DNA from: Desulfobacteraceae bacterium
GTDB taxonomy: Bacteria > Desulfobacterota > Desulfobacteria > Desulfobacterales > Desulfobacteraceae
DNA length: 64,000 nucleotides
Assembly (NCBI GenBank): GCA_024226935.1
Contig: JAAELK010000222.1
Span: 27,237-91,236, forward strand
Reading direction: 5' to 3'
In this document: piece after piece, positions 3,132-16,870 of the stretch
Layout of the letters: each line of letters begins with the position of its first letter
How positions within the stretch are numbered: the stretch's first letter is position 1
Program-made: the position numbers and the translations under genes
Notes under the pieces: generated by a model
What the model was told of the DNA's origin: nothing
Databases searched by the model: none
Seen by the model: only the letters and a program-made list of their open reading frames with translations

Positions 3132-3346
3132 AATTCAACCTTGTTTTTTTTTAATTCAGCAATATTTATGAGATAAAGCCAGTCAAGACATAAAACAAAC
3201 ACGGGAAAAGACATTCCCTGAACTTCTTTTGATCTTGCATATAGATCTAGCATCTCAAGCTTATCTTGGTTTTGTAAAACCTGCAAAACAATTGCTCCAT
3301 TATAATAGATGCTGTTTTCAGGATGAATGTTATCAGGAAGCAGCAT
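3122..3346 (-). CDS. Small protein in the position of the ABC-3C 'middle component'
   Basis: 74 aa with no motif I recognise. It is translationally coupled on both sides, with a 14-nt overlap with the effector gene stop and a 10-nt overlap with the ATPase start. Confidence 0.6.
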   Translation of the reverse strand: MLLPDNIHPENSIYYNGAIVLQVLQNQDKLEMLDLYARSKEVQGMSFPVFVLCLDWLYLINIAELKKNKVELCF

Positions 3347-4301
3347 AATTATAACCTTCTGGGTTTTCTAAAATCTTGCATCGAATAAAAGCATCAACCA
3401 CTAAAATATCGACACATAATTCTAACTCATCTATCGGGATATGGATGTAATTTGCACTTACAAGGATTTTGTTTTTTATCTCTTCAATAACAGAATAAAA
3501 AATTTCATCGGAATTTCTATTATTTTTTAGGTTCAAATATGTTCGCTTCATCGTGGCTAATACTGAATTACTCTTATTATTTCCTAAACTATCAAATTCA
3601 GAATACTTGGCATCAACCCTTCCATGATATAAAACATACTCATCAATTGTGTCTTTTGCCGAAGCCAAATCGTTATAAGATATTTTTCTATTTACTTCAA
3701 AACGAATTAAACGGTCTGATTTATTTGCTTCATCCCACTGTTCCTTGGATAGAATATTAATTATTGTTGCCAAATTAGAATCTAACTTTACAATATCAAC
3801 TCCCCCCCCAAGCTCTTTTTTAATTTGCTCATAAACCATTTTTTGCCCATCGACATCCATATTTAATATATTGCGGAGAATAGAGGTGATGTCATAAATA
3901 TCTACTGACGGAGTAAATGATATACCGTGGGGATTTACAAAATTCTTTTTTCTTAAATTTGAAGCATCATTGGCAATAGATATAAATTTAAACGTATAGC
4001 CTAAATATTTTTTCATTATTTTTTTTGATAATGCCGACTCAACTTTTTGTTTGGTATTTGTTGAAGAAACTTGAATAATAATTTTATTTTTATCATCTAC
4101 TAAATCTATAGCTTCCACATTTTGAAGACGGGCATTTAAGTTCTCTAAATTATAACTATAAATCACATTAAACAAATGCTGATAAAAATTCTCAGAATGC
4201 ATATGCAAACTCAACATATTTAGCTTGCCGCCAGTAGCAATCCTATTAGCAAAAATATGCAGTTTCTCTTCAATGTAAGAATAGTATTTAGTCTGATTCA
4301 T
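3333..4301 (-). CDS. SMEK-domain protein (predicted ABC-3C effector component)
   Basis: 322 aa. The N-terminal 'LSLHMHSENFYQHLFNVIYSYNLENLN...VEAIDLVDDKNKIIIQVSSTNTKQKV' is recognised as a SMEK domain. It is the first gene of the three-gene unit. Confidence 0.7.
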   Translation of the reverse strand: MNQTKYYSYIEEKLHIFANRIATGGKLNMLSLHMHSENFYQHLFNVIYSYNLENLNARLQNVEAIDLVDDKNKIIIQVSSTNTKQKVESALSKKIMKKYLGYTFKFISIANDASNLRKKNFVNPHGISFTPSVDIYDITSILRNILNMDVDGQKMVYEQIKKELGGGVDIVKLDSNLATIINILSKEQWDEANKSDRLIRFEVNRKISYNDLASAKDTIDEYVLYHGRVDAKYSEFDSLGNNKSNSVLATMKRTYLNLKNNRNSDEIFYSVIEEIKNKILVSANYIHIPIDELELCVDILVVDAFIRCKILENPEGYNYAAS

Positions 4302-4634: not shown

Positions 4635-4768
4635 AAAACCCGTGCTTGGATGAAAGCTTGCCCATATGCAAGGCGCAAGAAAGTTTGAAACCGGAGTGTA
4701 CTCCAGTACATGAGGTTTCAGGCTTTTGCAGCAACACGGCAGATGGGTGAGTTTTCGTTCAAACACTA
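4635..4768. repeat. Structured ~135-bp repeat element, copy A (second copy at 29044-29179)
   Basis: Roughly nine in ten positions match copy B by eye. It contains nested hairpins (cttgc-N6-gcaag, tgtac-N4-gtaca) and a 10-13-bp outer stem. It ends on the stop codon of the GNAT gene. Confidence 0.8.
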
Positions 4769-4798
4769 AGTATTTTCCAGCAGTTTTTGCCAGAACAA
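4765..4798. repeat. Direct repeat, right copy (within the 3' end of the GNAT gene)
   Basis: See 1326-1359. Confidence 0.85.
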
Positions 4799-5257
4799 AG
4801 CTCTGCCCATCCGGGGGTCAAGCTCATAGCCCGCAAATCCAAATTTTTTATAGGAGTTCAGGGCTACTTCATTACCCTCCAGAACCTCAAGGGTTATTTT
4901 GCAGCAATCCCTGTCTTTTGCTATCTGCTCTACTTTTTCCAGCATTAATTGACTGACGCCAAGACCACGAAACTCACTGATAACAATAATATCATGGATA
5001 TTGACCAGGGGCTTGCACTTAAAGGTGGAAAAAGCTTCAAAACAATTTATAAGACCCGCAGCCCTATTGTCCACGTAACAAAGGACGCTAAAAGCATGGG
5101 GTATTTTTGATAAATTTTTTGCCAGGTTCTCTTTTACATTTTCAGCCAGGGGTGTACCCCCACCCATGGGATCATTTGCATAGGAATCCAAAAGATAACC
5201 CATATCGGTTCCATGGCGAATATTGTCAAAGTCAGCTATTATTATTTCAATTTCCAT
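4766..5257 (-). CDS. GNAT family N-acetyltransferase
   Basis: 163 aa. It has the acetyl-CoA motif A 'FRGLGVSQLMLEKVEQIA' and the typical GNAT C-terminal 'ALNSYKKFGF'. Confidence 0.85.
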   Translation of the reverse strand: MEIEIIIADFDNIRHGTDMGYLLDSYANDPMGGGTPLAENVKENLAKNLSKIPHAFSVLCYVDNRAAGLINCFEAFSTFKCKPLVNIHDIIVISEFRGLGVSQLMLEKVEQIAKDRDCCKITLEVLEGNEVALNSYKKFGFAGYELDPRMGRALFWQKLLENT

Positions 5258-5328: not shown

Positions 5329-5685
5329 CTAGACATACTCATCATATTTTTTGGACGATCCCCTCACTTTTTCGGCGGGATATTTGATTGCATTTTTCTC
5401 TATTTTATTGTCGACTACCTCTTCGATATCGATGTCCAGCCTATCGGCCAGACGAAATAAATACATTGCTACATCTGCAATTTCTTCACCGATTTCGTGT
5501 TTTTTAACTGGATCGGCAACGATATTTTCAGACTGTTCCATATTCAACCATTGAAATTTCTCAAGTAATTCTGAAGCCTCTATTGATAAGGCAATGGCTA
5601 AATTTTTAGGGTTATGAAATTGATTCCAATCCCTTTCATCTGCAAATTTTTGAAGTTGTTTTTGAATCTGTTTAATACCCATCAT
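5329..5685 (-). CDS. MazG-like nucleotide pyrophosphohydrolase (dCTPase-like all-alpha NTP-PPase)
   Basis: 118 aa. Motifs present are 'FADERDWNQFHNPKNLAIALSIEASELLEKFQW' and 'EEIADVAMYLFRLADRLDID'. Confidence 0.8.
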   Translation of the reverse strand: MMGIKQIQKQLQKFADERDWNQFHNPKNLAIALSIEASELLEKFQWLNMEQSENIVADPVKKHEIGEEIADVAMYLFRLADRLDIDIEEVVDNKIEKNAIKYPAEKVRGSSKKYDEYV

Positions 5686-6065: not shown

Positions 6066-6776
6066 GTGACTTCAATAAAATCAATTCCAGTCAAAACCTT
6101 GGTAGTTCTATTTTTGTCCTGGTTTTTAATCTGTCCCCATTGCTTTGCAGGCAAAAATTCACAGGCAACCTATTCTAAAATAGCCGCAAAAGTGATGCCC
6201 GCCGTTGTCACGATTATTGTTTATGATTACAATGGCAAAATCGAAAATATAGGCAGCGGTTTTTTCTACAATGAAAAGGGAGATATCCTGACAAACAGCC
6301 ATGTACTTACCAAAAACACAAGGGCTGAAATTAAAACAAAGTCGGGAAAAAAGTATCCCATCGGATCAATTATTGAGAGAAATGAAAAAACAGATATTGT
6401 CCGGGCCCACACCCGCATTTCCAATAGGACTCCTTTTTTAAGGATTTCCCGGAACATTCCTGCCATGGGTAATCAGATCATGGTTGCAGGAAGCCCCATG
6501 GGCCTGGAACAAACCATCACCAACGGTATTATCTCAGCATGGCGAAAAATTCCAGCCTGGGGCAGAGTAATGCAGATATCGGCTCCCATATCACCAGGTT
6601 CCAGCGGCGGACCGGTTTTAAACATGGCAGGGGAAGTGGTTGGAATAGCTACCTGCCAAATGATCCAGGGACAAAACCTTAATTTTGCCGTTCCCGTTGA
6701 CAATATTTTTAATGAGCCAAAATCCACAAAGCTGAAATTTTATAAAAATGAGAAAGGCATCACCATAATTGAATAG
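6066..6776 (+). CDS. Secreted trypsin-like serine protease (S1C/DegP-type protease domain, no PDZ)
   Basis: 236 aa with a GTG start. It has a signal-like N-terminus, 'GSGFF...ILTNSHVL' (His) and 'SPGSSGGPVLN' (Ser). Confidence 0.8.
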   Translation: MTSIKSIPVKTLVVLFLSWFLICPHCFAGKNSQATYSKIAAKVMPAVVTIIVYDYNGKIENIGSGFFYNEKGDILTNSHVLTKNTRAEIKTKSGKKYPIGSIIERNEKTDIVRAHTRISNRTPFLRISRNIPAMGNQIMVAGSPMGLEQTITNGIISAWRKIPAWGRVMQISAPISPGSSGGPVLNMAGEVVGIATCQMIQGQNLNFAVPVDNIFNEPKSTKLKFYKNEKGITIIE

Positions 6777-7395
6777 ATTTCCAAGGGGCTGGTATCTTCT
6801 GGTTTCTATTTTCATAATTTTGGTAATTGATACCGGAATATCCTTTCCTGCCCATTTATCTCCCCTGGCCCTTATTGCAATCACCAGATTTGTCCAAACC
6901 CTGGTTCTTCTGGCCCTGATTTTCCTGGGTTCCGGGGGCACACGTTCTGTAGGACTTACCGGAAACAATTTATTTTCAGGGATAAAAACAGGCCTTCTCT
7001 GGTCTTGCCTTGCTGGAGCTTGCGCAGTTGGGGGGATAGGGCTTTTATATCTTGCAGGCATACATTTGCCAGGTCAAATTTATGCCTTCCCAGGAGGGAA
7101 AAATATTTTTGCATATTTAGGGATCGCCTGTTTTTTAAGCCCCATTGCTGAAGAACTGTTTTTCCGGGGATTTTTATATTCTTATTTTAGAAAAAAAGGC
7201 CTCTTTGTCGGCCTTGCCGCAAGCTCCTTTTTATTTGCCCTGGCCCACTTTTCCCAAGGTGGTCTGCCCCTGATTCAGTTTGCAGGAGGCATTTTATTTG
7301 CCCTTTCCTTTGAATATTCAAAAAGCCTGGCGGCCCCTTTGATCATACATATTTCAGGAAATCTGGCAATTTTTGCCTGGGGATATTTTTTATAA
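6769..7395 (+). CDS. CPBP family intramembrane glutamic endopeptidase (CAAX/Abi-like)
   Basis: 208 aa and multi-TM. It has the motifs 'PIAEELFFRGFLY', 'FALAHF' and 'IIHISGNL'. It overlaps the protease gene by 8 nt. The start (TTG) is uncertain. Confidence 0.8.
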   Translation: MNRFPRGWYLLVSIFIILVIDTGISFPAHLSPLALIAITRFVQTLVLLALIFLGSGGTRSVGLTGNNLFSGIKTGLLWSCLAGACAVGGIGLLYLAGIHLPGQIYAFPGGKNIFAYLGIACFLSPIAEELFFRGFLYSYFRKKGLFVGLAASSFLFALAHFSQGGLPLIQFAGGILFALSFEYSKSLAAPLIIHISGNLAIFAWGYFL

Positions 7396-7659: not shown

Positions 7660-10600
7660 ATGATTAATATTAACAAGGCGGCTAAACGAGAACTTGTCAA
7701 ATTAAAAGGGGTCGGTGCAATATCGGCCGAAAAAATTTCTGAATTTCGTAAGAAAGGTGGGGTAATAAACTCCATTTCCGAACTAAAAGTTATTTGTAAT
7801 ATTCAGGAAAGATATGTGGAAGCACTCAAAAGTGAAATTGCTTTTTCCGATGTGAATGCTGAATTGGAAAAACCCCACGGACCCTGGCAAACCATAAATC
7901 CCGGTTTTGATAATTCCATGACGGATGTAAAATTTCATCTGTTTAATTTTAAAGTCAAATTCCAGGGACAAGATGATACCAACCTGCCTGATATTACTGG
8001 TTATCAATTAAGCGTCGGTTACAAAACAACAAGATCCCGTGCAAGAAGTAAAATATCTTATACTCAAAAAATTATAAATTATAATCTTGATAATTCATCC
8101 CATCTGGATATAGCCATACCAAAAACCAATCTTGCCGAAAACAGTTTTAATCTTATTCTTAAACGTCCCGATGGGGATCAAATTTATAACTCAACTCTCC
8201 AGATAGATGAAAACAAAGAAGTAATTATTAATCTTCCAGTTTTTGATAATGCAAAACTTTTTGTTAAAATATTAAAGCAGCCCGGAGTTAATTATGAAGG
8301 TTATAAACTTGAGTATACCTTAAAAATAAACCGGGGCGGATCGGGCATCGATACCCGCAAAAAGAACCATGAATTTGCATCGGTGAATGAAATTGCCCTG
8401 GAATGGGACTGCTTTGGATCCATTGAAAATATAAATATAGAACTATTAAGTCCAAATGGAGAACAAATCCTTGAACTGGACAAAACCCTGGAAGAGATTG
8501 AGACGGTTAATAACAAGAAAATTATTGAAATAAAATTACCCGAACCCGCAATAATTGATTACACGATACAGCTTGCAGAAGATATCAATTTGTTAACCAA
8601 CCCCTACCTTGACCACAAAATCATTCTTACCTTTGATCTGATTAATCCCCAAACCCTTAATTTTATCAAACGAATAAGTCGTTCATTTGATATTGATTCA
8701 AAGGGGCGGGCAAAAATAGTTTTTAATCACTACGCCCTTGTTGAGATGATGTCCCTAGAAGTAAAAGCACCGGGGGGAGAAATTATAAGTAAAAAAGAGA
8801 TCGCCCATGATGAGATAATCCCCAGTGGTGAGGTCAAAATCAATGTTCCTCCCCGGAAGATAAGTCTTGCCCAAAATATTGAAAAAATGCCGGAACGCCC
8901 AAAAAAAACAACATGCAGGGTTATCGACGCCGACGGGGGAAAAAAATTTACAGATGTCCAGGTAATCATTTATACAGCCACCAGGCAAAACCCTGAAGAA
9001 GACGATTTCAAGGCACTGATTATCAACCGCACTGAAACCAACGGCTATTTTATTATCGATACTCCCCAGGATTATTTTACTGGAGCCTTTGCACGAATCG
9101 GCATTCCGGGAAAAGAATATACCCATGGCAAAACAATTGATGTTCCTGTTCTCTTGGATGAAGACAATGTTATAATTATTACAAACGGTGAACCTGTTAT
9201 CAGCAAAAAACTATTTTTCCCGGCATCAATAATCCTAGTAGTCGATTCCGACCTTGAAGATGTTGAGGAATGTAATAAAAACAATTGTAACGATCTGAAT
9301 TTCCATAAACATAAAAAAATCATAGATGAGTTTTCTTATTATACTGTGGTAAGAACCACGGAACCTTCAATCCAGGGTTATACCCTTGAAGAAGATGCCC
9401 AGATGACTGTGGCTCAAATTTTAGATATCATACCATTATCTTCACAAAGCGATGGCAAAAAGATAAGTATCCCATTTGAACTTCATCAAAAAAATATTCG
9501 TAAAAATATTCTTCTCAAACATATCAATGACAAAAAAGGCCTGACACCGACTACCTTGATAAAAGCCATCAATGAAAGCGACGCACAAAAACTTCGCCAG
9601 GAGATAAAACCTGCTGCAAAAATCAAAGCCATCGGGCGGCACACTTTAGATATGGACAATGCCATCGACTGGGACAAGGATCCTACAATTTACCAGGCAA
9701 CAACACTTTCCCACGGGCATCTTTTGCAATACAAACAAGAATGGGTCAATGACGGCTACTCCATGGGAGATCTTTTATATAGCCTTCCCTTGGCTCCCGG
9801 ACAAAAAAAACAAATAGTTGTCCTTGATTGGGAACGCCGCGAAACAGCAAGCCGGGAAGAATCCCAGGAATATAACGAGCAATTGAATAATTTCCTGGGT
9901 AAAGACAGGGATGTGAGTGAAGTGGTATTTGGGATACTCAATGAAAACACGGCCGGAGGATCATCTGCAAGAACTTCTTCGGCAAGTGGCGGCCTAGGTC
10001 TTGGTTTTGCCGGTGAAAAATTCAGTGGCGTACTTGGAGTTTCCGGAGGCGCAAGCAAGGCAAGTTCCCATGCATGGCAGGATTCTTCACGATCTTTATC
10101 CTTAAATGATCTTCAGCAGATCAGGGATAAAACCATACAATCGGCCAATGCAACACGGGGTCAGCGTTCCACAGTAGTACAAAGCGCAGGCCAGGCGGAA
10201 AGATTCGCCGTTGAAACAGAAGTGGTTGCCAACCACAATCATTGCCATTCGCTGACCATACAATATTTTGAAGTCCTGCGGCACCTGAATGTCAACCAGC
10301 GGCTTTCAAGCGTCCAGGAATGTTTGTTTATTCCATTGATAATGTCCTCTTTTGATAATCCAAAAATTCTCAGGTGGAGGGAGAGTCTTTATAACCATAT
10401 ATACCCAAGTTACCTGCGCAGGGGTTTTAGCGCAATTGACCGCATTGAACATGATTATGAGGGCAGCGACCTTCCAGAGGGCAGTTTTGCAGATGCCGAT
10501 CTCATCAGCCTTGAAGGACATCTTTATATTAAATTTGAAATACCCTCACCAATAGATTTGGCTACCCATCAAACCCAGGCAGATCTTCTTGCAGCCTATG

Positions 10601-13104
10601 AAAATTTAGGCTTTTTCGGAGATATAATCGTTAGGAACCTGATTCGTATTTTTGAGGCCGAGGCAGAAAAAAAGATCGAGATATTTAATAAATATATTGC
10701 CCCGGAAATTGCGGCGGCCATTGTGGAATATCTGGATTTTCACGCCATAACTAAAGATGGGACAAGTATACATCTTCCCATTGATACCTCTCTTATATCA
10801 AAATTTCAAAACAATAAGAATTTATACCTTACATTACACCAGGATGAAGAAATATCAGGATTAAGCAGAAATAATATCAAAGCCATTACCATCGATAAAA
10901 TTGCTTCTATTACCCTGGGAAATGGTAAAACACTTGGTGAAGCTCTTCCCGACAACACAAAGGTGATAATCAGTTCCGGAACGCTTTCCTACAGCAGTGA
11001 GTATAACTCCGGTAATATTTTCAAAAAATCCCGGATTAATGATGACCTTATCGGATACAGCGGAATCGGAGACGATAATGAAAAGGTGAGAATAAGCACT
11101 CCTCTTTCCCGGCAGGAAAGACATAATCCCCGGAAAAAAGATCTGGAACTTGCCAATAGCCTCCATGACCATTTGAATGATAATATTGAATATTATCATA
11201 AGGTTATCTGGACAAAAATGAGTGCTGAACGTCGATTCATGCTTTTAGACGGTATTCAAGTGACAGATTACTCAGAACAAAAAAATTATCCCGGAGGCGT
11301 CATAAGAAGTGTTTCTTCGGTGGTTGAAAACAGAATTATCGGTATTGTAGGCAATAGCCTGGTTATGCCTGTATCTCCCGGTATGCGCCTTGATCCCAAT
11401 ACCAGGGGCAATGAAGTTGATCTGATCTCCCTTTACAAACCATTGACTCCCGGAGAACCGATCCATGTCAGCCTGCCGACCAAAGGGGTATTTGCAGAAG
11501 CGGTCCTTGGAACCTGTAATAGTTGTGAGCACAAAGAAGATGACAGGTTCTGGAGGTGGAGCGAAGATCCCATCCCTGATTCACCGACTGCCATAAACGC
11601 AGTTGATACCGGTTCCAGAAGAACAGATCCCCTTGATACCACACCTTCTGTCATGGCAACCCCCGTTGTAAACATACAAAATTCACCAACCATTCCCGAT
11701 CCTTCAGGAATGGCCGCCATGAACAGCCTGCTTGGCAAATCTTCATTTACAGATATCACAGGGCTTGATCAAAATCAAAAGAACGCATTGGCAGCCCTGA
11801 CAGCATCATACGATGCAACCAAGTTCATGGCAGGAAAAGCCGCCGATATGTCATCGCTTAACAATCAGCTTGAATCGATTAAAAAGGCTAAATCAAACAA
11901 TTTAATTTCAGATGAAAAAGCAAAGAATCTCACGGAATCGGCCATCAATAAGTCAATTCTTGGAACAAAAGATGAAAAATCAGCAAAACAGATGGATACA
12001 ACGGATGTGGGTAACCTTGCCCAGTCTGCCAATGCAAATGGGGTAGATCTTCTGGTTAAAAGACCATCGGGTGAAACAATCGAAGTTAAAAAACCAAGTT
12101 CCCAAACAGTAGAAGACAGCCTGGCAATGGTTACAATTAACCCGCTATCAGGCGATACGCGATCTTTCAAGCCATCAAAAAATGATAAAACAGGTGTAAT
12201 CAATCTTGAAGCAACCAAAAGCCCCACGGTTAAAGCCACCACATGGTACGTTGCATCGGGAATCGGCAATTTTACAGCTAAAAACAAATTAAAAACGGCT
12301 TTCCAGTGTCTGACACCGGGACTCCACAAATTATCAATTTTTGCCGGACAATATCACCACACAATCCCAATAAGCATTCCACAATTTGTTGAGGTTAAAG
12401 AAGATGCAGCCCTATTTAAAACAGCTCTTCAAACTTTGGGAGTATTCACTCTTAAAAAAGAGATACTTGCCCAGGCCAAAACAACCTGTGATCATATCCT
12501 GAAAACAACAAATGTAAGAACGGTATGGACAATATCAGGAGAAAAACTTCCGACCCACCTCTCTTCACAATATGTCACAATAGTAACATTTAAAGACACT
12601 GGCGCTAAGGGAGCTTTCGGTAAGGCACCGGTATTTCCAAACTATTTTTCATCCAAAGTATATAACGAAAAAATTGAAATCTATCCCGGTGGATATGTTC
12701 AGACTGTTCCCACCACAAGCTCGGTGACCCAGGAAATTCGTGCATTGGTTTCATATATAAAAAACCTTACAACAGTAACACAGGCTTTTGATGATTTTAC
12801 AGCACATTTTTTCGGAAGACTCATCGGTGAAACCATGGCCCATGAGATAATACATACTCTTCTTGGTCACGATGTACATTCTTCGACCCATAACACCCCG
12901 GCAATAGCAAACGACATCATGAATACCGGGGCCCAAAGAAATCTGCCTTCAAGAACAGGATATCAAATTGACATCATAAGTCTTCCCCTCAATGCAACGG
13001 AACAGGACTATTTTAATAAATTTATCGACAAGGGTTTATCCAAAGTCAATCACCTCACAAAAAAGAATCAGGATAAAATGGACAAAATTTTTCCTATTCT
13101 TTAA
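7660..13104 (+). CDS. Giant (1814 aa) multidomain orphan protein: N-terminal ComEA-like HhH, beta-sandwich repeats, conserved Gly/Ser-rich core, C-terminal HExxH zincin-like motif
   Basis: The ORF is uninterrupted, with a good SD (ggggggaaatATG). Motifs seen: 'LVKLKGVGAISAEKISEFRKKGG' (HhH), 'CRVIDADGGKKFTDVQVIIY...TETNGYFII' (CarboxypepD_reg-like) and 'ETMAHEIIHTLLGHD' (HExxH). Confidence 0.85.
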   Translation: MININKAAKRELVKLKGVGAISAEKISEFRKKGGVINSISELKVICNIQERYVEALKSEIAFSDVNAELEKPHGPWQTINPGFDNSMTDVKFHLFNFKVKFQGQDDTNLPDITGYQLSVGYKTTRSRARSKISYTQKIINYNLDNSSHLDIAIPKTNLAENSFNLILKRPDGDQIYNSTLQIDENKEVIINLPVFDNAKLFVKILKQPGVNYEGYKLEYTLKINRGGSGIDTRKKNHEFASVNEIALEWDCFGSIENINIELLSPNGEQILELDKTLEEIETVNNKKIIEIKLPEPAIIDYTIQLAEDINLLTNPYLDHKIILTFDLINPQTLNFIKRISRSFDIDSKGRAKIVFNHYALVEMMSLEVKAPGGEIISKKEIAHDEIIPSGEVKINVPPRKISLAQNIEKMPERPKKTTCRVIDADGGKKFTDVQVIIYTATRQNPEEDDFKALIINRTETNGYFIIDTPQDYFTGAFARIGIPGKEYTHGKTIDVPVLLDEDNVIIITNGEPVISKKLFFPASIILVVDSDLEDVEECNKNNCNDLNFHKHKKIIDEFSYYTVVRTTEPSIQGYTLEEDAQMTVAQILDIIPLSSQSDGKKISIPFELHQKNIRKNILLKHINDKKGLTPTTLIKAINESDAQKLRQEIKPAAKIKAIGRHTLDMDNAIDWDKDPTIYQATTLSHGHLLQYKQEWVNDGYSMGDLLYSLPLAPGQKKQIVVLDWERRETASREESQEYNEQLNNFLGKDRDVSEVVFGILNENTAGGSSARTSSASGGLGLGFAGEKFSGVLGVSGGASKASSHAWQDSSRSLSLNDLQQIRDKTIQSANATRGQRSTVVQSAGQAERFAVETEVVANHNHCHSLTIQYFEVLRHLNVNQRLSSVQECLFIPLIMSSFDNPKILRWRESLYNHIYPSYLRRGFSAIDRIEHDYEGSDLPEGSFADADLISLEGHLYIKFEIPSPIDLATHQTQADLLAAYENLGFFGDIIVRNLIRIFEAEAEKKIEIFNKYIAPEIAAAIVEYLDFHAITKDGTSIHLPIDTSLISKFQNNKNLYLTLHQDEEISGLSRNNIKAITIDKIASITLGNGKTLGEALPDNTKVIISSGTLSYSSEYNSGNIFKKSRINDDLIGYSGIGDDNEKVRISTPLSRQERHNPRKKDLELANSLHDHLNDNIEYYHKVIWTKMSAERRFMLLDGIQVTDYSEQKNYPGGVIRSVSSVVENRIIGIVGNSLVMPVSPGMRLDPNTRGNEVDLISLYKPLTPGEPIHVSLPTKGVFAEAVLGTCNSCEHKEDDRFWRWSEDPIPDSPTAINAVDTGSRRTDPLDTTPSVMATPVVNIQNSPTIPDPSGMAAMNSLLGKSSFTDITGLDQNQKNALAALTASYDATKFMAGKAADMSSLNNQLESIKKAKSNNLISDEKAKNLTESAINKSILGTKDEKSAKQMDTTDVGNLAQSANANGVDLLVKRPSGETIEVKKPSSQTVEDSLAMVTINPLSGDTRSFKPSKNDKTGVINLEATKSPTVKATTWYVASGIGNFTAKNKLKTAFQCLTPGLHKLSIFAGQYHHTIPISIPQFVEVKEDAALFKTALQTLGVFTLKKEILAQAKTTCDHILKTTNVRTVWTISGEKLPTHLSSQYVTIVTFKDTGAKGAFGKAPVFPNYFSSKVYNEKIEIYPGGYVQTVPTTSSVTQEIRALVSYIKNLTTVTQAFDDFTAHFFGRLIGETMAHEIIHTLLGHDVHSSTHNTPAIANDIMNTGAQRNLPSRTGYQIDIISLPLNATEQDYFNKFIDKGLSKVNHLTKKNQDKMDKIFPIL

Positions 13105-13143
13105 AAGTTGTTCTTTAAATAATTAATACAGCAAATAATAAGG

Positions 13144-13181
13144 CCGTGGGCTGATATGGTTCCACGGTTTTATTATTTTTT
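13144..13181. terminator. Rho-independent terminator between convergent genes
   Basis: The stem is ccgtgg-N12-ccacgg, followed by ttttattatttttt. Confidence 0.55.
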
Positions 13182-13220
13182 CCGGTTCATCGAAAAATTA
13201 TAAAAGCCTGAGGAAGCAGA

Positions 13221-14642
13221 TCATAATTTATCATAGCGTTTTTTAATCTTTCTTAAAAACGCTATGCCAATGTTTTTGCCTTCATCATCCATAGTGTTCT
13301 GGATGGCGGTGTGCAGTTTGCCGTCTATTATAGTTTTATAATAAGATTTAATATCGTCATTAGAAATGTCTTCGGGAGTTAAAATATTGTATAAAATAGA
13401 GTAGGCCCAGATGCCACTAGCTAATTTTGCTTCACGCTGGTAAGCTTGCCTTACCCACCATCCTCGCCCAACTTTTCCTTTTCTCCGTCGATCCTGGATA
13501 TATTTTACCAAGGGACGATCACGGGGGCTATCCTTGATTACAGGTGCCTTTTTGGATGGTACTATATTTCGATAATCATCGTCGTAAAATTTTTTGAAAG
13601 TATCACCACCCCATGATATTTGTCTGTCGATCAGAAAAGAGAACTTATAATCCACCCGGCCTATCTTATCAATATAGTCGCTGGCTTTATCTATAAACGG
13701 GTTAACTTGATCCATGAACCAATTAAACGAGTCTTGGTTATAAGCTTTATTTTCCTTATCCAATTCATCTCCCCTTGTCATTATTATATCTGTTCTGCCA
13801 ACGACTGGTATTATTGTTACACTGTGGGATATTTTTGCATCAGGATCACTTGAAATGTAAGCGCAGGCAACATTGGCTGCTGCATTATTAAGGCAGTAAG
13901 CAAGACCAGCATCCACGGGAAGATTGAACTCTTTTAAGGCTGCATAGGCTTCATAGGACTCATTCCATCTTCTTGTTATCTCTTTAATATCGGTAGGGGT
14001 ATGACCGTGTACATGATACTTTCTATGTTTATTATCAAGCTTTATATCTTTTCTACGTTTTCTTATTTTCTCGAAACTTGTTTTTTCCTCTCCTACATTA
14101 TTTTCATTTGTGTGTCTCGACCATATACGCGGTATAATCTTTTTAGATATACCTGCTTCATCCCTTTGAGCCTCGATTTTTAGATTTTTTGTTGTCAGGC
14201 CAGCATGGGTAATGACGTAGGTATGTTTGGTTCGTACATATATTCTTCCATTCCCTTTGTCTAACAGATACAAAAAACTTTTAAAAAAGTTGTTGAATAA
14301 ATTTGGCTTCTTGTTCAATTCCATGCAAACTGTGATTCCGCCGTTTGCACTCCAATTGTACCATTTATTACTATAATCACTTCCGGTGTCATTACAAATT
14401 TCAGCTAAAATTGCATTCAAAAGTAACGATTCGTGATTTCCCAAAACAAAATGGTACCTGGGATCGGATTGCATTTTTTTTGCGTATTTTATAACAACTT
14501 CTGCTGATTTTGATCCTCTGTCTATGAGATCTCCTACGCACACAACTTGATCATGCTCTCTTAGGTTTTTGTCTATATACTCCATGACTGCATTGTAAGC
14601 GTCAAGATTGCCGTGTATATCGCTAAATATATATATTCCCAT
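13221..14642 (-). CDS. Calcineurin-like metallophosphoesterase (PPP/ApaH-like) with a long uncharacterised C-terminal region
   Basis: 473 aa. Motifs seen: 'IYIFSDIHGN', 'VCVGDLIDRG', 'LGNHE' and 'HVHGHTP'. The C-terminal ~200 aa have no motif I recognise. Confidence 0.8.
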   Translation of the reverse strand: MGIYIFSDIHGNLDAYNAVMEYIDKNLREHDQVVCVGDLIDRGSKSAEVVIKYAKKMQSDPRYHFVLGNHESLLLNAILAEICNDTGSDYSNKWYNWSANGGITVCMELNKKPNLFNNFFKSFLYLLDKGNGRIYVRTKHTYVITHAGLTTKNLKIEAQRDEAGISKKIIPRIWSRHTNENNVGEEKTSFEKIRKRRKDIKLDNKHRKYHVHGHTPTDIKEITRRWNESYEAYAALKEFNLPVDAGLAYCLNNAAANVACAYISSDPDAKISHSVTIIPVVGRTDIIMTRGDELDKENKAYNQDSFNWFMDQVNPFIDKASDYIDKIGRVDYKFSFLIDRQISWGGDTFKKFYDDDYRNIVPSKKAPVIKDSPRDRPLVKYIQDRRRKGKVGRGWWVRQAYQREAKLASGIWAYSILYNILTPEDISNDDIKSYYKTIIDGKLHTAIQNTMDDEGKNIGIAFLRKIKKRYDKL

Positions 14643-15029
14643 GTTTGAGCCTTTTTTTTGTAAGTTTTTATAAACTAATTAAAATAATTACACTTTTCCC
14701 CTTTTGTGTAAATCATTTAACAATGATTAATTATTTAATAATTGTTTTTTTTATTTTATCACTTTTTTTTATATAAATGCTTGGTTTGATTGCAGTATAT
14801 GGGTATTCTTTTGAAAGTTCCGGCCCTATTTTTTTAATTTGTTTTTATTAATGGGGAGACAGGTTATGGAATTTTATCTTATCTTTGCATTGTAAAGTTT
14901 TAGGGTGTTGATTATGATGGAAAGCTAGTAGCAATACCACTAGGTAATTCGTACTTTTCTACCAAACGGAATATGGATTTCTGCATGATCATTAATAAAG
15001 TCAATGTATTTAACTGATGTTAAATAGGT

Positions 15030-15088
15030 ATGACATCACACTGCGCGTGATCATAATTATGTTCATGTAATTTAATTTACGCTCCTTA
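15030..15088. repeat. Inverted repeat, left arm (46-bp perfect core 15041-15086)
   Basis: The core ctgcgcgtgatcataattatgttcatgtaatttaatttacgctcct is the exact reverse complement of 16462-16507. Partial matches extend the repeat to about 57 bp. Confidence 0.9.
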
Positions 15089-15146
15089 GTGGGGGGAGTA
15101 GTCACTCCTCATCCATTAAAATCATGACGAGCATCATCAATACCGA

Positions 15147-16385
15147 TTATTGCCGTTGGTAAAACTCTCCAAGAAATTGAAAACTTTCGACCTCGGTTTC
15201 ATCCTGATTCAGAATAAGGTTAAAGGATTTACCAACATCAGATTCGAAATATGGACACTCCTTGTTGGTAAAAAGCTTTCTTTCTGTAAGATCCGGTATT
15301 AGTGTCCAGGTCCAGCCTGCTTCATTTTCCCATTGCATGGAATTACCGACCATGGAAATGGTACCTGTGTGCCATTCATTGGTGGGAGGTTGGCGAATAT
15401 ATTGTCCGAATACATCATTGAGCGAGAGTCCATCATCACCAACATCAACATAATCCGAACCGTTACCTGAAATTCCATGGGCTCCTGTGTATGGATAATG
15501 TGTTTTTTCGCAGTCTGCAAGTGTGGAAGTCAGTGGTTCATGGTTTTGAATCGCATCTGTGGCAACACACTTAAACACCTCCTCAGACGATCCGATATAC
15601 AGATTATCAATACCTCCGATATATTTTTGGGCACCTGCATTTAGGATGGCTGGCTGCAATGGGCTGTTATGAACCTGGCATGAGTTGAAATAAAGGACTT
15701 TGCTGTTTAATGTATCTAATGGCATATTCCGAAAGTCGTTATAAGATAATGTTCCATTGGAAACCATGATGCCGGTAGTGCTTCCATGGCCGATTCTGCC
15801 AAAGTATACCAGGTCATCGCATTCAAGCCAGTTTAGTATTGCAGATCTGTTTTCTGCATTTCCCAAAAGTACCTCCACGTTATATCCTGCATCTTCTGCT
15901 ACCCCAGCAGCAAAATTGATCCCGGCAACTGCTGTTTGTATTCCTGTCTCACATGTTGAAAACACCATCTCCACGGATTTATCAGGGCAACTTGCATAAA
16001 CTTCCACATCCCCCTGGGAATAGTCAGCTTCTGTTTCCAGATATTTTGTTTCAATAGAGATTACCTGGTAGGCATCATTGATGTCTATGCGTGTTGTTTC
16101 AAATAGATAGGTATGGTTGCTTAATATATACACAATCAAATGATCAGGGTCACCAGATGGTTTATATATGATTTTTACGTTTACCTTATAATGAAGATTT
16201 TCAGATAATTTTAAGTTGTCAGTGATAATTGATTCTATTTTATTGTCATCTATGGCTTTTGCATACTGGTAATGGGTTGGAAATATATTTATGGGTACAT
16301 CTGCCCATGCAATTGAACTTAAAGATAATACAAAAAACAGCGTGATAGCACTTTGCAACATTTTTGTTTTAAATGAATTTTTCAT
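15147..16385 (-). CDS. Secreted gingipain-like (peptidase C25 / caspase-fold) cysteine protease homologue with an uncharacterised C-terminal domain
   Basis: 412 aa with signal peptide 'MLQSAITLFFVLSLSSIAWA'. 'FGRIGHGSTTG...(about 30 aa)...LYFNSCQVHN' matches the His-Gly / Cys dyad spacing of C25 proteases. Confidence 0.55.
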   Translation of the reverse strand: MKNSFKTKMLQSAITLFFVLSLSSIAWADVPINIFPTHYQYAKAIDDNKIESIITDNLKLSENLHYKVNVKIIYKPSGDPDHLIVYILSNHTYLFETTRIDINDAYQVISIETKYLETEADYSQGDVEVYASCPDKSVEMVFSTCETGIQTAVAGINFAAGVAEDAGYNVEVLLGNAENRSAILNWLECDDLVYFGRIGHGSTTGIMVSNGTLSYNDFRNMPLDTLNSKVLYFNSCQVHNSPLQPAILNAGAQKYIGGIDNLYIGSSEEVFKCVATDAIQNHEPLTSTLADCEKTHYPYTGAHGISGNGSDYVDVGDDGLSLNDVFGQYIRQPPTNEWHTGTISMVGNSMQWENEAGWTWTLIPDLTERKLFTNKECPYFESDVGKSFNLILNQDETEVESFQFLGEFYQRQ

Positions 16386-16459
16386 TTTGCACCTTTTTTT
16401 ATTGTTTAATGGATTCTTGGATTCACTTAAACATTTAGGATAAATTCCCCATGAAATTC

Positions 16460-16518
16460 TTAGGAGCGTAAATTAAATTACATGAACATAATTATGATCA
16501 CGCGCAGTACGATGTCAT
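16460..16518. repeat. Inverted repeat, right arm (46-bp perfect core 16462-16507)
   Basis: Reverse complement of 15041-15086. Confidence 0.9.
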
Positions 16519-16870
16519 GCCACAGGTTGTCATGCATTGCTGATTGAACGGAGACCTATGGTGAATTTGTTCAGGTTAATTCGTTTGCATTCCTAAGCGG
16601 ATATAATTCCTCAAATGGATCAGCGAATTTGTCGCCCCTGCAAAAATGTAGTGATACTTTTTGCAGGAGGGCAGTAAATTTTGCAAGATCCATCTAAAGC
16701 AAATTGAAGTATCACCTCCGTTCTTTAGTGTTTGATTTTGTCATCTTTTGAGAGCCTTATCTTCAGAAGAATCGTTTATTGTTGCCCATAACGATGTGTA
16801 AGACTAAATAACTACAGAATATAAATATTACGCTAAGATTTATGATTTATTAGCTACCTACACAGACCTG

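What the first reader, a model, noticed from the sequence alone, without database searches (positions are those of the whole stretch)
7660..13104. 1814-aa orphan giant protein with HhH N-terminus, conserved Gly/Ser-rich core and C-terminal zincin motif
This single ORF is 5.4 kb and has no signal peptide. Its domains, in order:
- A ComEA-like helix-hairpin-helix (residues ~5-60).
- About 500 residues of beta-sandwich-like repeats, including a CarboxypepD_reg-like segment.
- A highly conserved-looking core: 'GYSMGDLLYSLPLAPGQKKQIVVLDWERRE', then a Gly/Ser-rich loop 'AGGSSARTSSASGGLGLGFAGEKFSGVLGVSGGASKASS', then 'VETEVVANHNHCHSLTIQYFEVLRHLNV'.
- A C-terminal 'AHEIIHTLLGHD' HExxH motif.

I cannot assign the core to any family from memory. 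Combining a DNA-binding-type HhH with a metalloprotease motif in a cytoplasmic-looking giant protein is unusual. It would fit a toxin/effector or a conflict-system sensor-effector.
Basis: partly seen in the sequence, partly recalled or inferred. Interest (0 to 1): 0.6.

Follow-up and report, generated by a model that had tools for sequence, protein, structure and literature searches.

The report
Giant carrier protein with swappable enzyme tail
This 1,814-residue protein is not an orphan: it belongs to a huge, unnamed, horizontally spreading family in which a conserved body of unknown fold carries an exchangeable end enzyme (here a zinc protease), so it is probably a self-contained weapon against other cells' envelopes.

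Summary
"Orphan" is wrong. The core finds 3,194 clusters at 50% identity, in more than 15 bacterial phyla and one archaeon. It was found in none of 40 relatives searched.

The scan met this family twice before on other DNA (e1-2975015, e1-2394533). My tests agree with those notes and add to them.

All members share a body (about residues 350-1450) that matches no Pfam, NCBIfam, PDB, PADLOC or PHROG entry. It contains a fixed-length glycine-zipper segment, invariant ANxNHCH and CxxC motifs, and a strongly conserved proline-rich linker.

The tail after residue 1450 is swapped repeatedly: at least 21 changes on the core tree. Other tails include cysteine protease, esterase, M23, amidase, lysozyme and tyrosinase domains. 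The window's tail is the commonest type. It models confidently (pLDDT 90) as an Ig-like domain plus a divergent metzincin-like domain with invariant HExxH.

No homologue has a signal peptide. No neighbouring gene is conserved. About one locus in five carries a co-inherited tandem pair of paralogues.

Best reading (about 0.5): a stand-alone effector resembling a polymorphic toxin or bacteriocin. Export, membrane insertion and target are all inferred.

The parts
7660..13104 (+). Whole gene, 1814 aa, apparently monocistronic
   Evidence: ORF list and translation. Shine-Dalgarno-like GGGGGG before the ATG and an AT-rich 265-bp upstream spacer. Single copy in its own genome.
7663..7839 (+). N-terminal ComEA-type helix-hairpin-helix domain (residues 2-60)
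   Evidence: Pfam HHH_3 at E 4.2e-10, 40 bits against a cut-off of 27. The family profile matches PDB EEPD1 9yi2 at 5e-20 and ComEA 8dfk at 2e-11. TIGR01259 comE scores 35.8 bits, far below its cut-off of 152, so this is not ComEA itself.
7942..8874 (+). Three weak repeats of about 100 aa, beta-rich spacer modules (residues about 95-405); only the third is shared by most homologues
   Evidence: Pairwise local alignments give z 2.2-3.3 against shuffles and share a 'L..P.G[ED].I...V.I.[LV]P' motif. Homologue coverage is only 27-46 of 119 over residues 100-350.
8899..9249 (+). Transthyretin/CarboxypepD_reg-like beta-sandwich (residues about 414-530)
   Evidence: AF2 pLDDT is about 80-90 here. The top Foldseek PDB hits are transthyretins, E 2.6e-3, probability 1.0. 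Foldseek did not report the query range; I assigned the region from the model's only well-folded sandwich of that size.
9577..11859 (+). Conserved family core (residues 640-1400); the conserved body as a whole spans about residues 350-1450
   Evidence: 43-64% identical to 62 cores from other phyla, with 63 invariant columns. 3194 representative clusters. No Pfam, PDB, PADLOC or PHROG match. AF2 predicts two very long beta-hairpins (residues 684-731 and 842-892), a 37-residue helix and mixed alpha/beta domains, with mean pLDDT 66.
9952..10068 (+). Fixed-length Ser/Thr-flanked glycine-zipper segment (residues 765-803; hydrophobic centre 777-797), candidate membrane-insertion element
   Evidence: The alignment has almost no indels. 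Consensus: RGGSxAxTxSxxGGxGxGAIxGxVGGLLGxGGGxSxASSxAWQxSSR. 21 of 63 cores weakly hit the glycine-zipper family PF20721 C19orf12, best E 1e-3. AF2 confidence is low here, 30-40.
10228..10248 (+). Invariant ANxNHCH motif (residues 857-863) at the tip between two long strands
   Evidence: N, N, C and H are invariant and the second H is at least 90% conserved in 63 cores. Position relative to the strands comes from the AF2 secondary structure. A role in metal binding or catalysis is inference only.
11515..11529 (+). Invariant CxxCE motif (residues 1286-1290), followed by RFWRW
   Evidence: C647, C650 and E651 (alignment numbering) are invariant in A5. Positions checked.
11482..11844 (+). Strongly conserved but predicted-disordered proline-rich linker (residues about 1275-1395) ending in the 'DITGL..NQ' boundary motif
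   Evidence: pLDDT is below 50, yet many columns are invariant or at least 90% conserved: R, F, W, P, Q, G.
11860..12129 (+). Helical pre-tail linker (residues about 1400-1490). Homology between tail classes ends here, so this is the swap junction.
   Evidence: Homologue coverage falls from 117 of 119 at residue 1400 to 59 of 119 by residue 1500. The consensus 'AKxxGLIxDxQAxxLTxxAI' is shared by different tail types.
12130..12402 (+). Ig-like beta-sandwich at the start of the tail (residues about 1491-1581)
   Evidence: AF2 of residues 1480-1814 gives pLDDT 90.5 and pTM 0.91. Foldseek hits: phage SU10 virion protein 7z4b at E 4.8e-3, and the lambda gpV Ig-like domain 2l04 with TM 0.52.
12406..13101 (+). 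Divergent metzincin-like zinc-peptidase domain (residues about 1583-1814): HExxH at nt 12841-12855, candidate third ligand H1744 at nt 12889-12891, conserved Met in D-x-M-N at nt 12913-12924
   Evidence: H1728, E1729 and H1732 are invariant, and R1720 and G1723 are invariant, in 65 sequences. H1744 is at least 90% conserved. HExxH lies on a 31-residue helix. Fold hits are weak: ADAM22 5y2z at E 0.017 over 264 columns, and adamalysin 1iag at E 0.054 with TM 0.34. No Pfam hit even at E<=1. Best PDB profile hit is a snake-venom metalloproteinase at E 0.12.
13143..13185 (+). Terminator-like hairpin (CCGTGG...CCACGG) followed by a T-run, between the gene and the convergent downstream gene
   Evidence: Read directly from the sequence. 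The scan tool did not list it because the loop exceeds its 8-nt limit.

Best explanation
The gene encodes one member of a very large, unnamed, horizontally mobile family of stand-alone 'carrier plus payload' proteins.

Shown:
- The layout is an N-terminal non-specific DNA-binding HhH domain, beta-sandwich spacers, a body of about 1,100 residues that is extremely conserved and has no known relative, a conserved proline-rich linker, and a C-terminal enzyme.
- That enzyme has been exchanged many times between lineages.
- In this copy the payload is an Ig-like domain plus a divergent metzincin-like zinc peptidase.

Inferred:
- The protein is made in the cytoplasm without a Sec signal.
- It leaves the producer by lysis or by an unknown route, as colicin-type bacteriocins do.
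- The HhH end holds it on extracellular or surface DNA.
- The body oligomerises and inserts its glycine-zipper segment into a membrane.
- The tail is thereby brought to the envelope of another cell, where it cuts envelope proteins or peptides.
- The producer needs no immunity gene because the enzyme has no substrate, or is latent, in its own cytoplasm.
For: - Family size and conservation: 1648 proteins and 3194 clusters at 50% identity. Cores are 43-64% identical across more than 15 phyla and a Nitrosopumilus genome.
- Accessory and mobile: found in 0 of 40 relatives searched, including 8 of the same genus. The core tree cuts across phyla, for example Nitrosopumilus next to Acidobacteriota.
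- Swappable tail: Pfam tally of 88 tails gives Peptidase_C70 19, PETase-like 8, M23 3, Amidase_2 3, tyrosinase 2, and single cases of GH25, M15_4, muramidase, Amidase_6, DUF2272, LysM and OmpA.
- Tail classes need at least 21 changes on the core tree (minimum possible 10). Well-supported branches force at least 9 changes for the window's own class. The window is the only member of its class in a 99-100%-supported clade whose other members carry tyrosinase or canonical metzincin tails.
- No Sec-like N-terminus in 165 complete homologues or in the window protein.
- No shared neighbour in 80 loci (largest cluster 6 loci). None within 2.5 kb in the 25 loci with the window-type tail.
- The glycine-zipper segment has fixed length and weakly hits PF20721 in 21 of 63 cores. 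A glycine zipper is needed for translocation of the T6SS effector Tde1 (PMC10240207).
- The tail model is confident (pLDDT 90.5), with HExxH on a long helix. HExxH is invariant.
Against: - No export, lysis or immunity gene is linked to the gene, so both release and self-protection are assumptions.
- The body has no structural relative. Its model is only moderate (pLDDT 66, pTM 0.45). The glycine-zipper segment is the least confident part and in this copy carries E and K in its centre (Kyte-Doolittle mean 0.81). Membrane insertion is therefore unproven.
- Some tails (tyrosinase, OmpA-like, LysM only) are not obvious toxins.
- One carrier genome is labelled an archaeon, which has no murein.
- The tail's fold match to metzincins is weak (E 0.017-0.054), and no substrate can be named.
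Confidence: 0.5

Rival explanations
1. Self-directed lysis device for abortive infection, programmed autolysis or developmental cell death. The HhH end senses DNA in the producer's cytoplasm. The body then opens the producer's own membrane, like a holin fused to its lysin. The tail degrades the producer's own envelope.
For: - No signal peptide and no immunity gene.
- Tails resemble phage endolysins; the single viral-contig copy hits the endolysin family phrog_181.
- The window gene lies in a roughly 17-kb accessory stretch that also holds an ABC-3C defence pair.
- The family is patchy and horizontally transferred, like defence genes.
Against: - No PADLOC match.
- Defence genes are not recurrent neighbours in 80 loci.
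- The HHH_3/ComEA-type HhH is best known from extracytoplasmic, sequence-independent DNA binding (my own knowledge; PDB matches).
- Tails such as tyrosinase, C70 protease and OmpA-like domains fit poorly.
- Nothing resembles a trigger or NTPase switch.
Confidence: 0.15
2. A non-toxic extracellular scaffold. The giant protein sits on the surface or in the matrix, anchored to extracellular DNA, and presents an enzyme for envelope or matrix remodelling, nutrient scavenging or predation support. It does not kill by translocation.
For: - HhH, Ig-like and transthyretin-like sandwiches are typical of surface proteins.
- Some tails are binding modules only: LysM, OmpA, PG_binding_1.
- The family occurs in predators and biofilm formers such as Bdellovibrio, Myxococcus and Saprospiraceae.
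Against: - No signal peptide, anchor, sortase, T9SS or S-layer motif in any of 165 homologues (Pfam).
- Core conservation of 43-64% identity across phyla, together with frequent tail swapping, is the signature of conflict proteins rather than adhesins.
Confidence: 0.15
3. A relic or cargo of a mobile element or virus, for example a virion-associated lysin or ejection protein, that now sits alone in chromosomes.
For: - The Ig-like domain resembles those of phage SU10 and lambda gpV.
- One copy lies next to a prophage integrase and repressor.
- One Foldseek hit to a Yasminevirus protein at E 2.7e-5.
- Strong signs of horizontal transfer.
Against: - Only 1 of 2.9 million viral contigs encodes the core, against 276 species genomes.
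- No PHROG match.
- No phage structural genes beside any of 80 loci.
- The Yasminevirus match has TM 0.08/0.13 and rmsd 43 Å, so it cannot be interpreted.
Confidence: 0.07
4. One reading: an orphan, cytoplasmic, DNA-binding giant protease acting as a sensor-effector.
For: HhH, HExxH and the lack of a signal peptide are all real.
Against: - The protein is not an orphan.
- The protease is one of many interchangeable tails, so DNA-triggered proteolysis cannot be the function of the family.
- There are no partner genes.
Confidence: 0.05

Closest known systems
Polymorphic toxin systems (Rhs, CdiA, LXG, MafB, TANFOR; Zhang et al. 2012, PMC3482391; PMC7073777)
   Same: A long conserved carrier with a sharply bounded C-terminal enzyme domain that is exchanged between close relatives. 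A conserved motif lies just before the junction. Horizontal spread is wide.
   Different: No recognised trafficking domain or signal. No YD, FHA, LXG or PAAR elements. No secretion-system genes nearby. No adjacent immunity gene for the window-type tail. The payloads are mostly envelope-lytic enzymes rather than nucleases, deaminases or ARTs. The carrier fold is unknown.
Colicin/pyocin-type bacteriocins, including the murein-targeting pesticin and colicin M (my own knowledge; lysis-dependent release is noted in PMC3482391)
   Same: No signal peptide. Modular binding, translocation and killing layout with the killing domain at the C-terminus. Some act on the cell wall from the periplasm. A disordered but conserved segment could carry linear binding epitopes.
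   Different: Three to ten times larger. Chromosomal solo gene without lysis or immunity genes. No Tol/Ton boxes identified. Present in Gram-positives and an archaeon.
Glycine-zipper membrane elements: the Tde1 N-terminus (PMC10240207), the VacA N-terminus, and Pfam glycine-zipper families
   Same: Repeated GxxxG spacing in a short hydrophobic stretch. In Tde1 such a stretch is required to cross the target membrane.
   Different: Here the zipper is internal, is flanked by Ser/Thr arms and long beta-hairpins, and has a Gly-Pro or Gly-Lys turn in the middle. Only weak compositional hits to PF20721. No functional data.
Metzincin metallopeptidases (adamalysin/ADAM, reprolysin-like)
   Same: HExxH on the active-site helix of an alpha/beta domain. 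A further conserved His and a conserved Met lie downstream. ADAM22 and adamalysin II are the best catalytic-domain fold matches.
   Different: The third His is 12 residues after the second instead of 6. No HExxHxxGxxH. No Pfam, NCBIfam or PDB profile match. Fold E-values are only 0.017-0.054.
ComEA and other HHH_3 proteins
   Same: A duplicated HhH of about 60 residues above the Pfam threshold. ComEA is the closest solved bacterial structure.
   Different: Scores far below the ComEA family cut-off. No membrane anchor. Here it is fused to a 1,750-residue protein.
Mycobacteriophage LysA/LysB endolysin pairs (my own knowledge), as an analogue for the tandem-pair subfamily
   Same: A peptidase-type enzyme and a cutinase/esterase-type enzyme are encoded side by side and inherited together.
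   Different: In this family each enzyme rides on its own carrier of about 1,100 residues, and the loci contain no phage genes. This does not apply to the window, which has a single copy.

Membership tests
Polymorphic toxin systems (PMC3482391) | Conserved carrier with C-terminal domains that vary between homologues | tested here: met
   Coverage drops from 117 to 59 of 119 homologues after residue 1450. More than 15 Pfam families occur among 88 tails. At least 21 tail changes are needed on the core tree.
Polymorphic toxin systems (PMC3482391) | N-terminal signal or trafficking domain tying the protein to a secretion route | tested here: not met
   Pfam finds only HHH_3. No hydrophobic N-terminus in the window protein or in 165 homologues. 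No secretion genes among neighbours.
Polymorphic toxin systems (PMC3482391) | Cognate immunity gene immediately downstream of the toxin domain | tested here: not met
   The downstream gene in the window is convergent. No ORF of 45 aa or more is shared by more than 2 of 25 loci with the same tail type. A 94-aa ORF recurs only in the tandem-pair subfamily.
Polymorphic toxin systems (PMC3482391) | The C-terminal domain is toxic to target cells | not testable with these tools
   Needs expression and competition assays.
Zincin/metzincin metallopeptidases | HExxH on the active-site helix | tested here: met
   H1728, E1729 and H1732 are invariant in 65 sequences. The motif lies within helix 229-259 of the tail model, pLDDT 90.5.
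Zincin/metzincin metallopeptidases | Third zinc ligand and Met-turn in canonical spacing (HExxHxxGxxH ... M) | tested here: inconclusive
   A conserved His (H1744, at least 90%) lies 12 residues after H1732, and a conserved Met lies in 'D-x-M-N'. The spacing is not canonical.
Zincin/metzincin metallopeptidases | Profile or fold match to a curated family | tested here: inconclusive
   No Pfam hit at E<=1. Best PDB profile hit E 0.12. Foldseek gives ADAM22 at E 0.017 and adamalysin at E 0.054, and nothing at E<=1e-3.
HHH_3 / ComEA-type HhH | Score above the Pfam gathering threshold | tested here: met
   40 bits against 27.
ComEA (TIGR01259) | Score above the NCBIfam cut-off | tested here: not met
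   35.8 bits against 152.35.
Colicin-like bacteriocins | Linked immunity and lysis genes; Tol/Ton-dependent translocation domain | tested here: not met
   No conserved neighbours. No Pfam colicin domains.
Glycine-zipper membrane/channel elements | Conserved GxxxG register in a hydrophobic segment | tested here: met
   Fixed-length consensus GGxGxGAIxGxVGGLLGxGGG. 21 of 63 cores hit PF20721 weakly.
Glycine-zipper membrane/channel elements | Actual membrane insertion or channel formation | not testable with these tools
   Needs liposome or bilayer assays. The AF2 model is unconfident here.
Known anti-phage defence systems (PADLOC-DB 2.0) | Profile match to a defence protein | tested here: not met
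   0 families at E<=1.
Phage protein families (PHROGs v4) | Profile match, or frequent presence on viral contigs | tested here: not met
   Only a 0.16 E-value chance hit. 1 locus in 2.9 million viral contigs.

The most novel reading that the evidence does not exclude
The family is a previously undescribed toxin-delivery platform that needs no secretion system. A single polypeptide carries its own DNA-binding anchor, its own glycine-zipper membrane-crossing machine of a new fold, and a plug-in lytic enzyme. It spreads by horizontal transfer through more than 15 bacterial phyla and into archaea. In one subfamily two carriers with different warheads, plus a 94-aa partner protein, are inherited as a unit.
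Probability: 0.35. Interest if true: 0.85.

Novelty: new variant of a known kind. Interest (0 to 1): 0.62.

Why it matters
If the reading holds, thousands of genomes, from Legionella, Mycobacterium and Streptomyces to Bdellovibrio and Nitrosopumilus, carry a self-sufficient protein weapon. Its conserved body of about 1,100 residues has no known fold or mechanism.

Working out how a signal-less 200-kDa protein gets an enzyme to another cell's wall would add a new route to the catalogue of protein translocation. It would also give a natural chassis that accepts many different enzyme cargoes.

Even if the weapon reading fails, this is one of the largest strongly conserved protein modules that still lacks a Pfam or NCBIfam model. 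The window-type tail would define a new zincin family.

Tried and rejected
- Pfam, NCBIfam, PADLOC and PHROGs on the full protein, and Pfam on 63 isolated cores at E<=1, gave nothing for the body. The only recurrent hit was a weak glycine-zipper match to PF20721.
- PDB sequence searches with the single protein and with two family profiles matched only the HhH domain. Matches to huntingtin and CFAP46 fall on the low-complexity linker and I rejected them as compositional.
- Foldseek of the body model against PDB matched only the transthyretin-like sandwich.
- Foldseek of the body model against BFVD gave one Yasminevirus protein at E 2.7e-5, but with TM 0.08/0.13 and rmsd 43 Å. I rejected it as evidence of a shared fold.
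- A body-only model could not be made.
- I looked for partner genes by clustering 774 neighbouring ORFs from 80 loci, and then ORFs of 45 aa or more within 2.5 kb of 25 loci with the same tail type. Nothing was shared. The CPBP protease gene upstream in the window (CPBP proteins can act as bacteriocin immunity proteins) does not recur in other loci, so I did not treat it as a partner.
- I searched for stand-alone versions of the window-type tail. The result was one 259-aa fragment on a 1.2-kb contig, and nothing with the profile.
- Five literature searches found no description of the family.
- GC content shows no island signature. Promoter and terminator scans were at shuffle level.
Full report
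**1. The observation**

The window holds one uninterrupted ORF at 7660-13104 (+) that encodes 1814 residues.
- A G-rich Shine-Dalgarno-like stretch lies just before the ATG, and the upstream spacer is 265 bp and AT-rich.
- A hairpin with a T-run lies at about 13143-13185, before the convergent downstream gene. The gene therefore looks monocistronic.
- The N-terminus aligns with the N-termini of homologues, so the start codon is credible.
- Residues 2-60 match Pfam HHH_3 above threshold. They resemble ComEA and EEPD1 in the PDB but fall far below the ComEA family cut-off.
- There is no signal peptide or transmembrane helix.
- Three weak repeats of about 100 residues cover residues 95-405.
- A transthyretin/CarboxypepD_reg-like sandwich at about residues 414-530 is supported by the AF2 model and by Foldseek.

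**2. Not an orphan**

- Residues 660-1000 find 1648 proteins, 52-67% identical over that stretch among the 120 listed. Their source names refer only to peripheral domains: "helix-hairpin-helix domain-containing", "tyrosinase family", "DUF2272".
- An exhaustive HMMER search with residues 600-1420 finds 3194 clusters at 50% identity, 1573 of them at E<=1e-30. Nearly all listed hits are proteins of 1,100-2,600 residues that contain the whole core.
- A pattern scan of one genome per species confirmed 276 species, which is a lower bound. They span Bacteroidota, Pseudomonadota (including Legionella), Actinomycetota (Streptomyces, Mycobacterium, Micromonospora), Chloroflexota, Acidobacteriota, Verrucomicrobiota, Myxococcota, Bdellovibrionota, Nitrospirota, Planctomycetota, Gemmatimonadota, Calditrichota, Melainabacteria, Bacillota, Thermodesulfobacteriota and a Nitrosopumilus MAG.
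- The window's own genome has one copy. None of 40 relatives searched has one, including 8 genomes of the same genus and 24 of the same family.
- At DNA level only the two ends of the first 20 kb find matches in same-genus genomes. The gene therefore sits in a stretch of about 17 kb that looks accessory.
- The core tree disregards taxonomy.
- The scan had met this family twice before on other DNA (e1-2975015 and e1-2394533). My tests reach the same broad reading independently.

**3. Anatomy of the family**

- All 119 first-round homologues align from about residue 350 to 1450. Only half continue into the window's tail.
- Sixty-three cores from different phyla are 43-64% identical to the window's, with 63 invariant columns.
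- The body has no match in Pfam, NCBIfam, PADLOC or PHROGs, and no match to PDB sequence profiles.
- An AF2 model of residues 340-1460 is of moderate quality (pLDDT 66, pTM 0.45). It predicts two very long beta-hairpins (residues 684-731 and 842-892) flanking a low-confidence insert, a 37-residue helix, further alpha/beta domains, and a disordered stretch at residues 1275-1395.
- Foldseek against PDB matched only the transthyretin-like sandwich.
- Against viral models, one Yasminevirus protein scored E 2.7e-5 but with TM 0.08/0.13, which I do not accept as a shared fold.

Four sequence features of the body stand out:
- The Gly/Ser "loop" has fixed length and a conserved GxxxG register. Ser/Thr arms and charged helices flank it. 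Twenty-one of 63 cores weakly hit the glycine-zipper family PF20721.
- The ANxNHCH motif (857-863) is invariant.
- The CxxCE motif (1286-1290) is invariant.
- The "disordered" proline-rich linker is among the most conserved parts of the protein.

**4. The tail**

- Homology between tail classes ends after a shared helical linker at about residues 1400-1490.
- Pfam tally of 88 tails from genomes: Peptidase_C70 19, PETase-like alpha/beta hydrolase 8, M23 3, Amidase_2 3, tyrosinase 2, plus GH25, M15_4, muramidase, Amidase_6, DUF2272, LysM and OmpA. In the larger set there are also clostripain, PG_binding_1 and Hedgehog/LAS-type domains.
- By all-against-all clustering, the window's tail class (T1) is the largest, with 25 of 88 tails.
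- On the core tree, tail classes need at least 21 changes (10 is the minimum possible; the mean for shuffled labels is 41.9). Strongly supported branches force at least 9 changes for T1.
- The window is the only T1 member in a 99-100%-supported clade. The other members of that clade carry tyrosinase, canonical HELGH metzincin or other tails. That is direct evidence of cassette exchange.

The T1 tail in detail:
- It folds confidently (pLDDT 90.5, pTM 0.91) into an Ig-like sandwich plus an alpha/beta domain, with HExxH on a 31-residue helix.
- H1728, E1729 and H1732 are invariant in 65 sequences. H1744 is at least 90% conserved, and a Met in D-x-M-N is conserved.
- There is no Pfam hit even at E<=1. 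The best PDB profile hit has E 0.12.
- Foldseek gives Ig-like hits (phage SU10, lambda gpV). For the catalytic part it gives only weak adamalysin/ADAM matches at E 0.017-0.054.
- I call it a divergent metzincin-like peptidase. Membership of any named family is not shown.
- I found no stand-alone version of this domain.

**5. Context**

The window neighbours are:
- an ABC-3C defence pair (DUF2326; SMEK_N plus CTD10);
- a GNAT acetyltransferase;
- a MazG-like protein;
- a trypsin-like protease and a CPBP protease upstream on the same strand;
- a convergent metallophosphatase downstream.

None of these recurs.
- Clustering 774 neighbouring ORFs from 80 loci gave no family present in more than 6 loci.
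- For the 25 T1 loci, no ORF of 45 aa or more within 2.5 kb is shared by more than two loci.
- Three spot checks (Marinobacter, Nitrosopumilus, Streptomyces) agree.
- None of 165 complete homologues has a signal-peptide-like N-terminus.
- Only one of 2.9 million viral contigs encodes the core. That copy sits at the contig end beside an integrase.

New relative to the earlier notes:
- Fifteen of 80 loci carry two paralogues in tandem.
- In the main type, a long paralogue with an alpha/beta-hydrolase tail is followed by a soluble ORF of about 94 aa, and then by a shorter paralogue with a C70 cysteine-protease tail.
- The two paralogue clades have mirror-image topologies across Mycobacterium, Heliobacteriaceae, Gammaproteobacteria and Actinomycetota. 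The pair is therefore inherited, and transferred, as a unit.
- The window has the solo form.

**6. Mechanism**

Shown:
- modular layout;
- extreme conservation of the body;
- repeated tail exchange;
- horizontal spread;
- absence of signal, partner and immunity genes for this tail type;
- a well-folded HExxH domain.

Inferred:
- Most alternative tails act on murein or other envelope components, so the tail must work outside a cytoplasmic membrane.
- No export signal or system is linked, so release is probably by lysis or an unknown route, as for colicin-type bacteriocins (PMC3482391 notes their lysis-dependent release).
- The fixed-length glycine zipper between long hairpins is the best candidate for a membrane-inserting element. 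The analogy is with the zipper needed for Tde1 translocation (PMC10240207).
- The HhH end would tether the protein to extracellular or surface DNA.

I give this stand-alone effector reading about 0.5.

**7. Comparison and novelty**

- The logic is that of polymorphic toxins: a conserved carrier with a swappable C-terminal enzyme.
- Two of their defining features, a trafficking domain and an adjacent immunity gene, were tested and not met. The protein works like a polymorphic toxin but cannot be filed as a member of any described class.
- The body and the T1 tail have no curated family.
- I rate it a new variant of a known kind. As an individual gene it is one more member of a family this scan has already flagged twice.

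**8. Limits**

- The body model is only moderately confident.
- No coordinates were available to test whether the HCH and CxxC motifs meet in space.
- The tree was built with FastTree only.
- The Nitrosopumilus assignment rests on a MAG title.

Noticed in passing
window 1410-4301 (-): An ABC-3C (ABC-three-component) defence-type pair: a DUF2326 protein (573 aa) and a SMEK_N plus CTD10 protein (322 aa). A GNAT gene (4766-5257) and a MazG-like gene (5329-5685) follow.
   Followed up: partly
window 4635-4772: An element of about 135 bp with more than 20 copies at 91-96% identity on other contigs of the same genome, and copies in two same-genus genomes. It looks like a MITE/REP-type repeat.
   Followed up: no
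window 15027-15089 and 16459-16521: A 63-bp inverted repeat pair (94% match) brackets the 412-aa ORF at 15147-16385 (-). That ORF has a signal-like N-terminus, no Pfam hit, and a 71% DNA paralogue on another contig.
   Followed up: no
window 6066-7395 (+): A secreted trypsin-like protease and a CPBP/Rce1-like intramembrane protease overlap by 8 bp just upstream of the giant gene. CPBP proteins can act as bacteriocin immunity factors, but this pair does not recur beside homologues.
   Followed up: partly
L053, L056, L058, L062, L068, L075, L077, L079, L082 (for example L053 7635-17497): A tandem cassette: a long paralogue with an alpha/beta-hydrolase tail, a soluble acidic ORF of about 94 aa in seven of the nine loci, and a shorter paralogue with a Peptidase_C70 tail. 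The two paralogue clades co-diverge across phyla.
   Followed up: partly
L064 7848-14230: A family member split in two by a 400-aa transposase-like ORF, that is, a disrupted copy.
   Followed up: no
L085 1-8023 (IMG/VR contig): The only viral-contig copy (at least 2184 aa, with an endolysin-like tail matching phrog_181) ends next to a prophage integrase and repressor. It could be prophage cargo or flanking host DNA.
   Followed up: partly
L034 / L002 (Nitrosopumilus sp. MAG, 1.8-Mb contig): An archaeal genome carries a full-length copy with the same HExxH tail. It groups with Acidobacteriota and Pseudomonadota copies in the core tree, and TFIIB genes lie nearby, so the contig looks genuinely archaeal.
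   Followed up: partly
window 13221-14642 (-): A 473-aa calcineurin-like metallophosphatase with a long extension of unknown function. It has a 68% DNA paralogue on another contig of the same genome.
   Followed up: no
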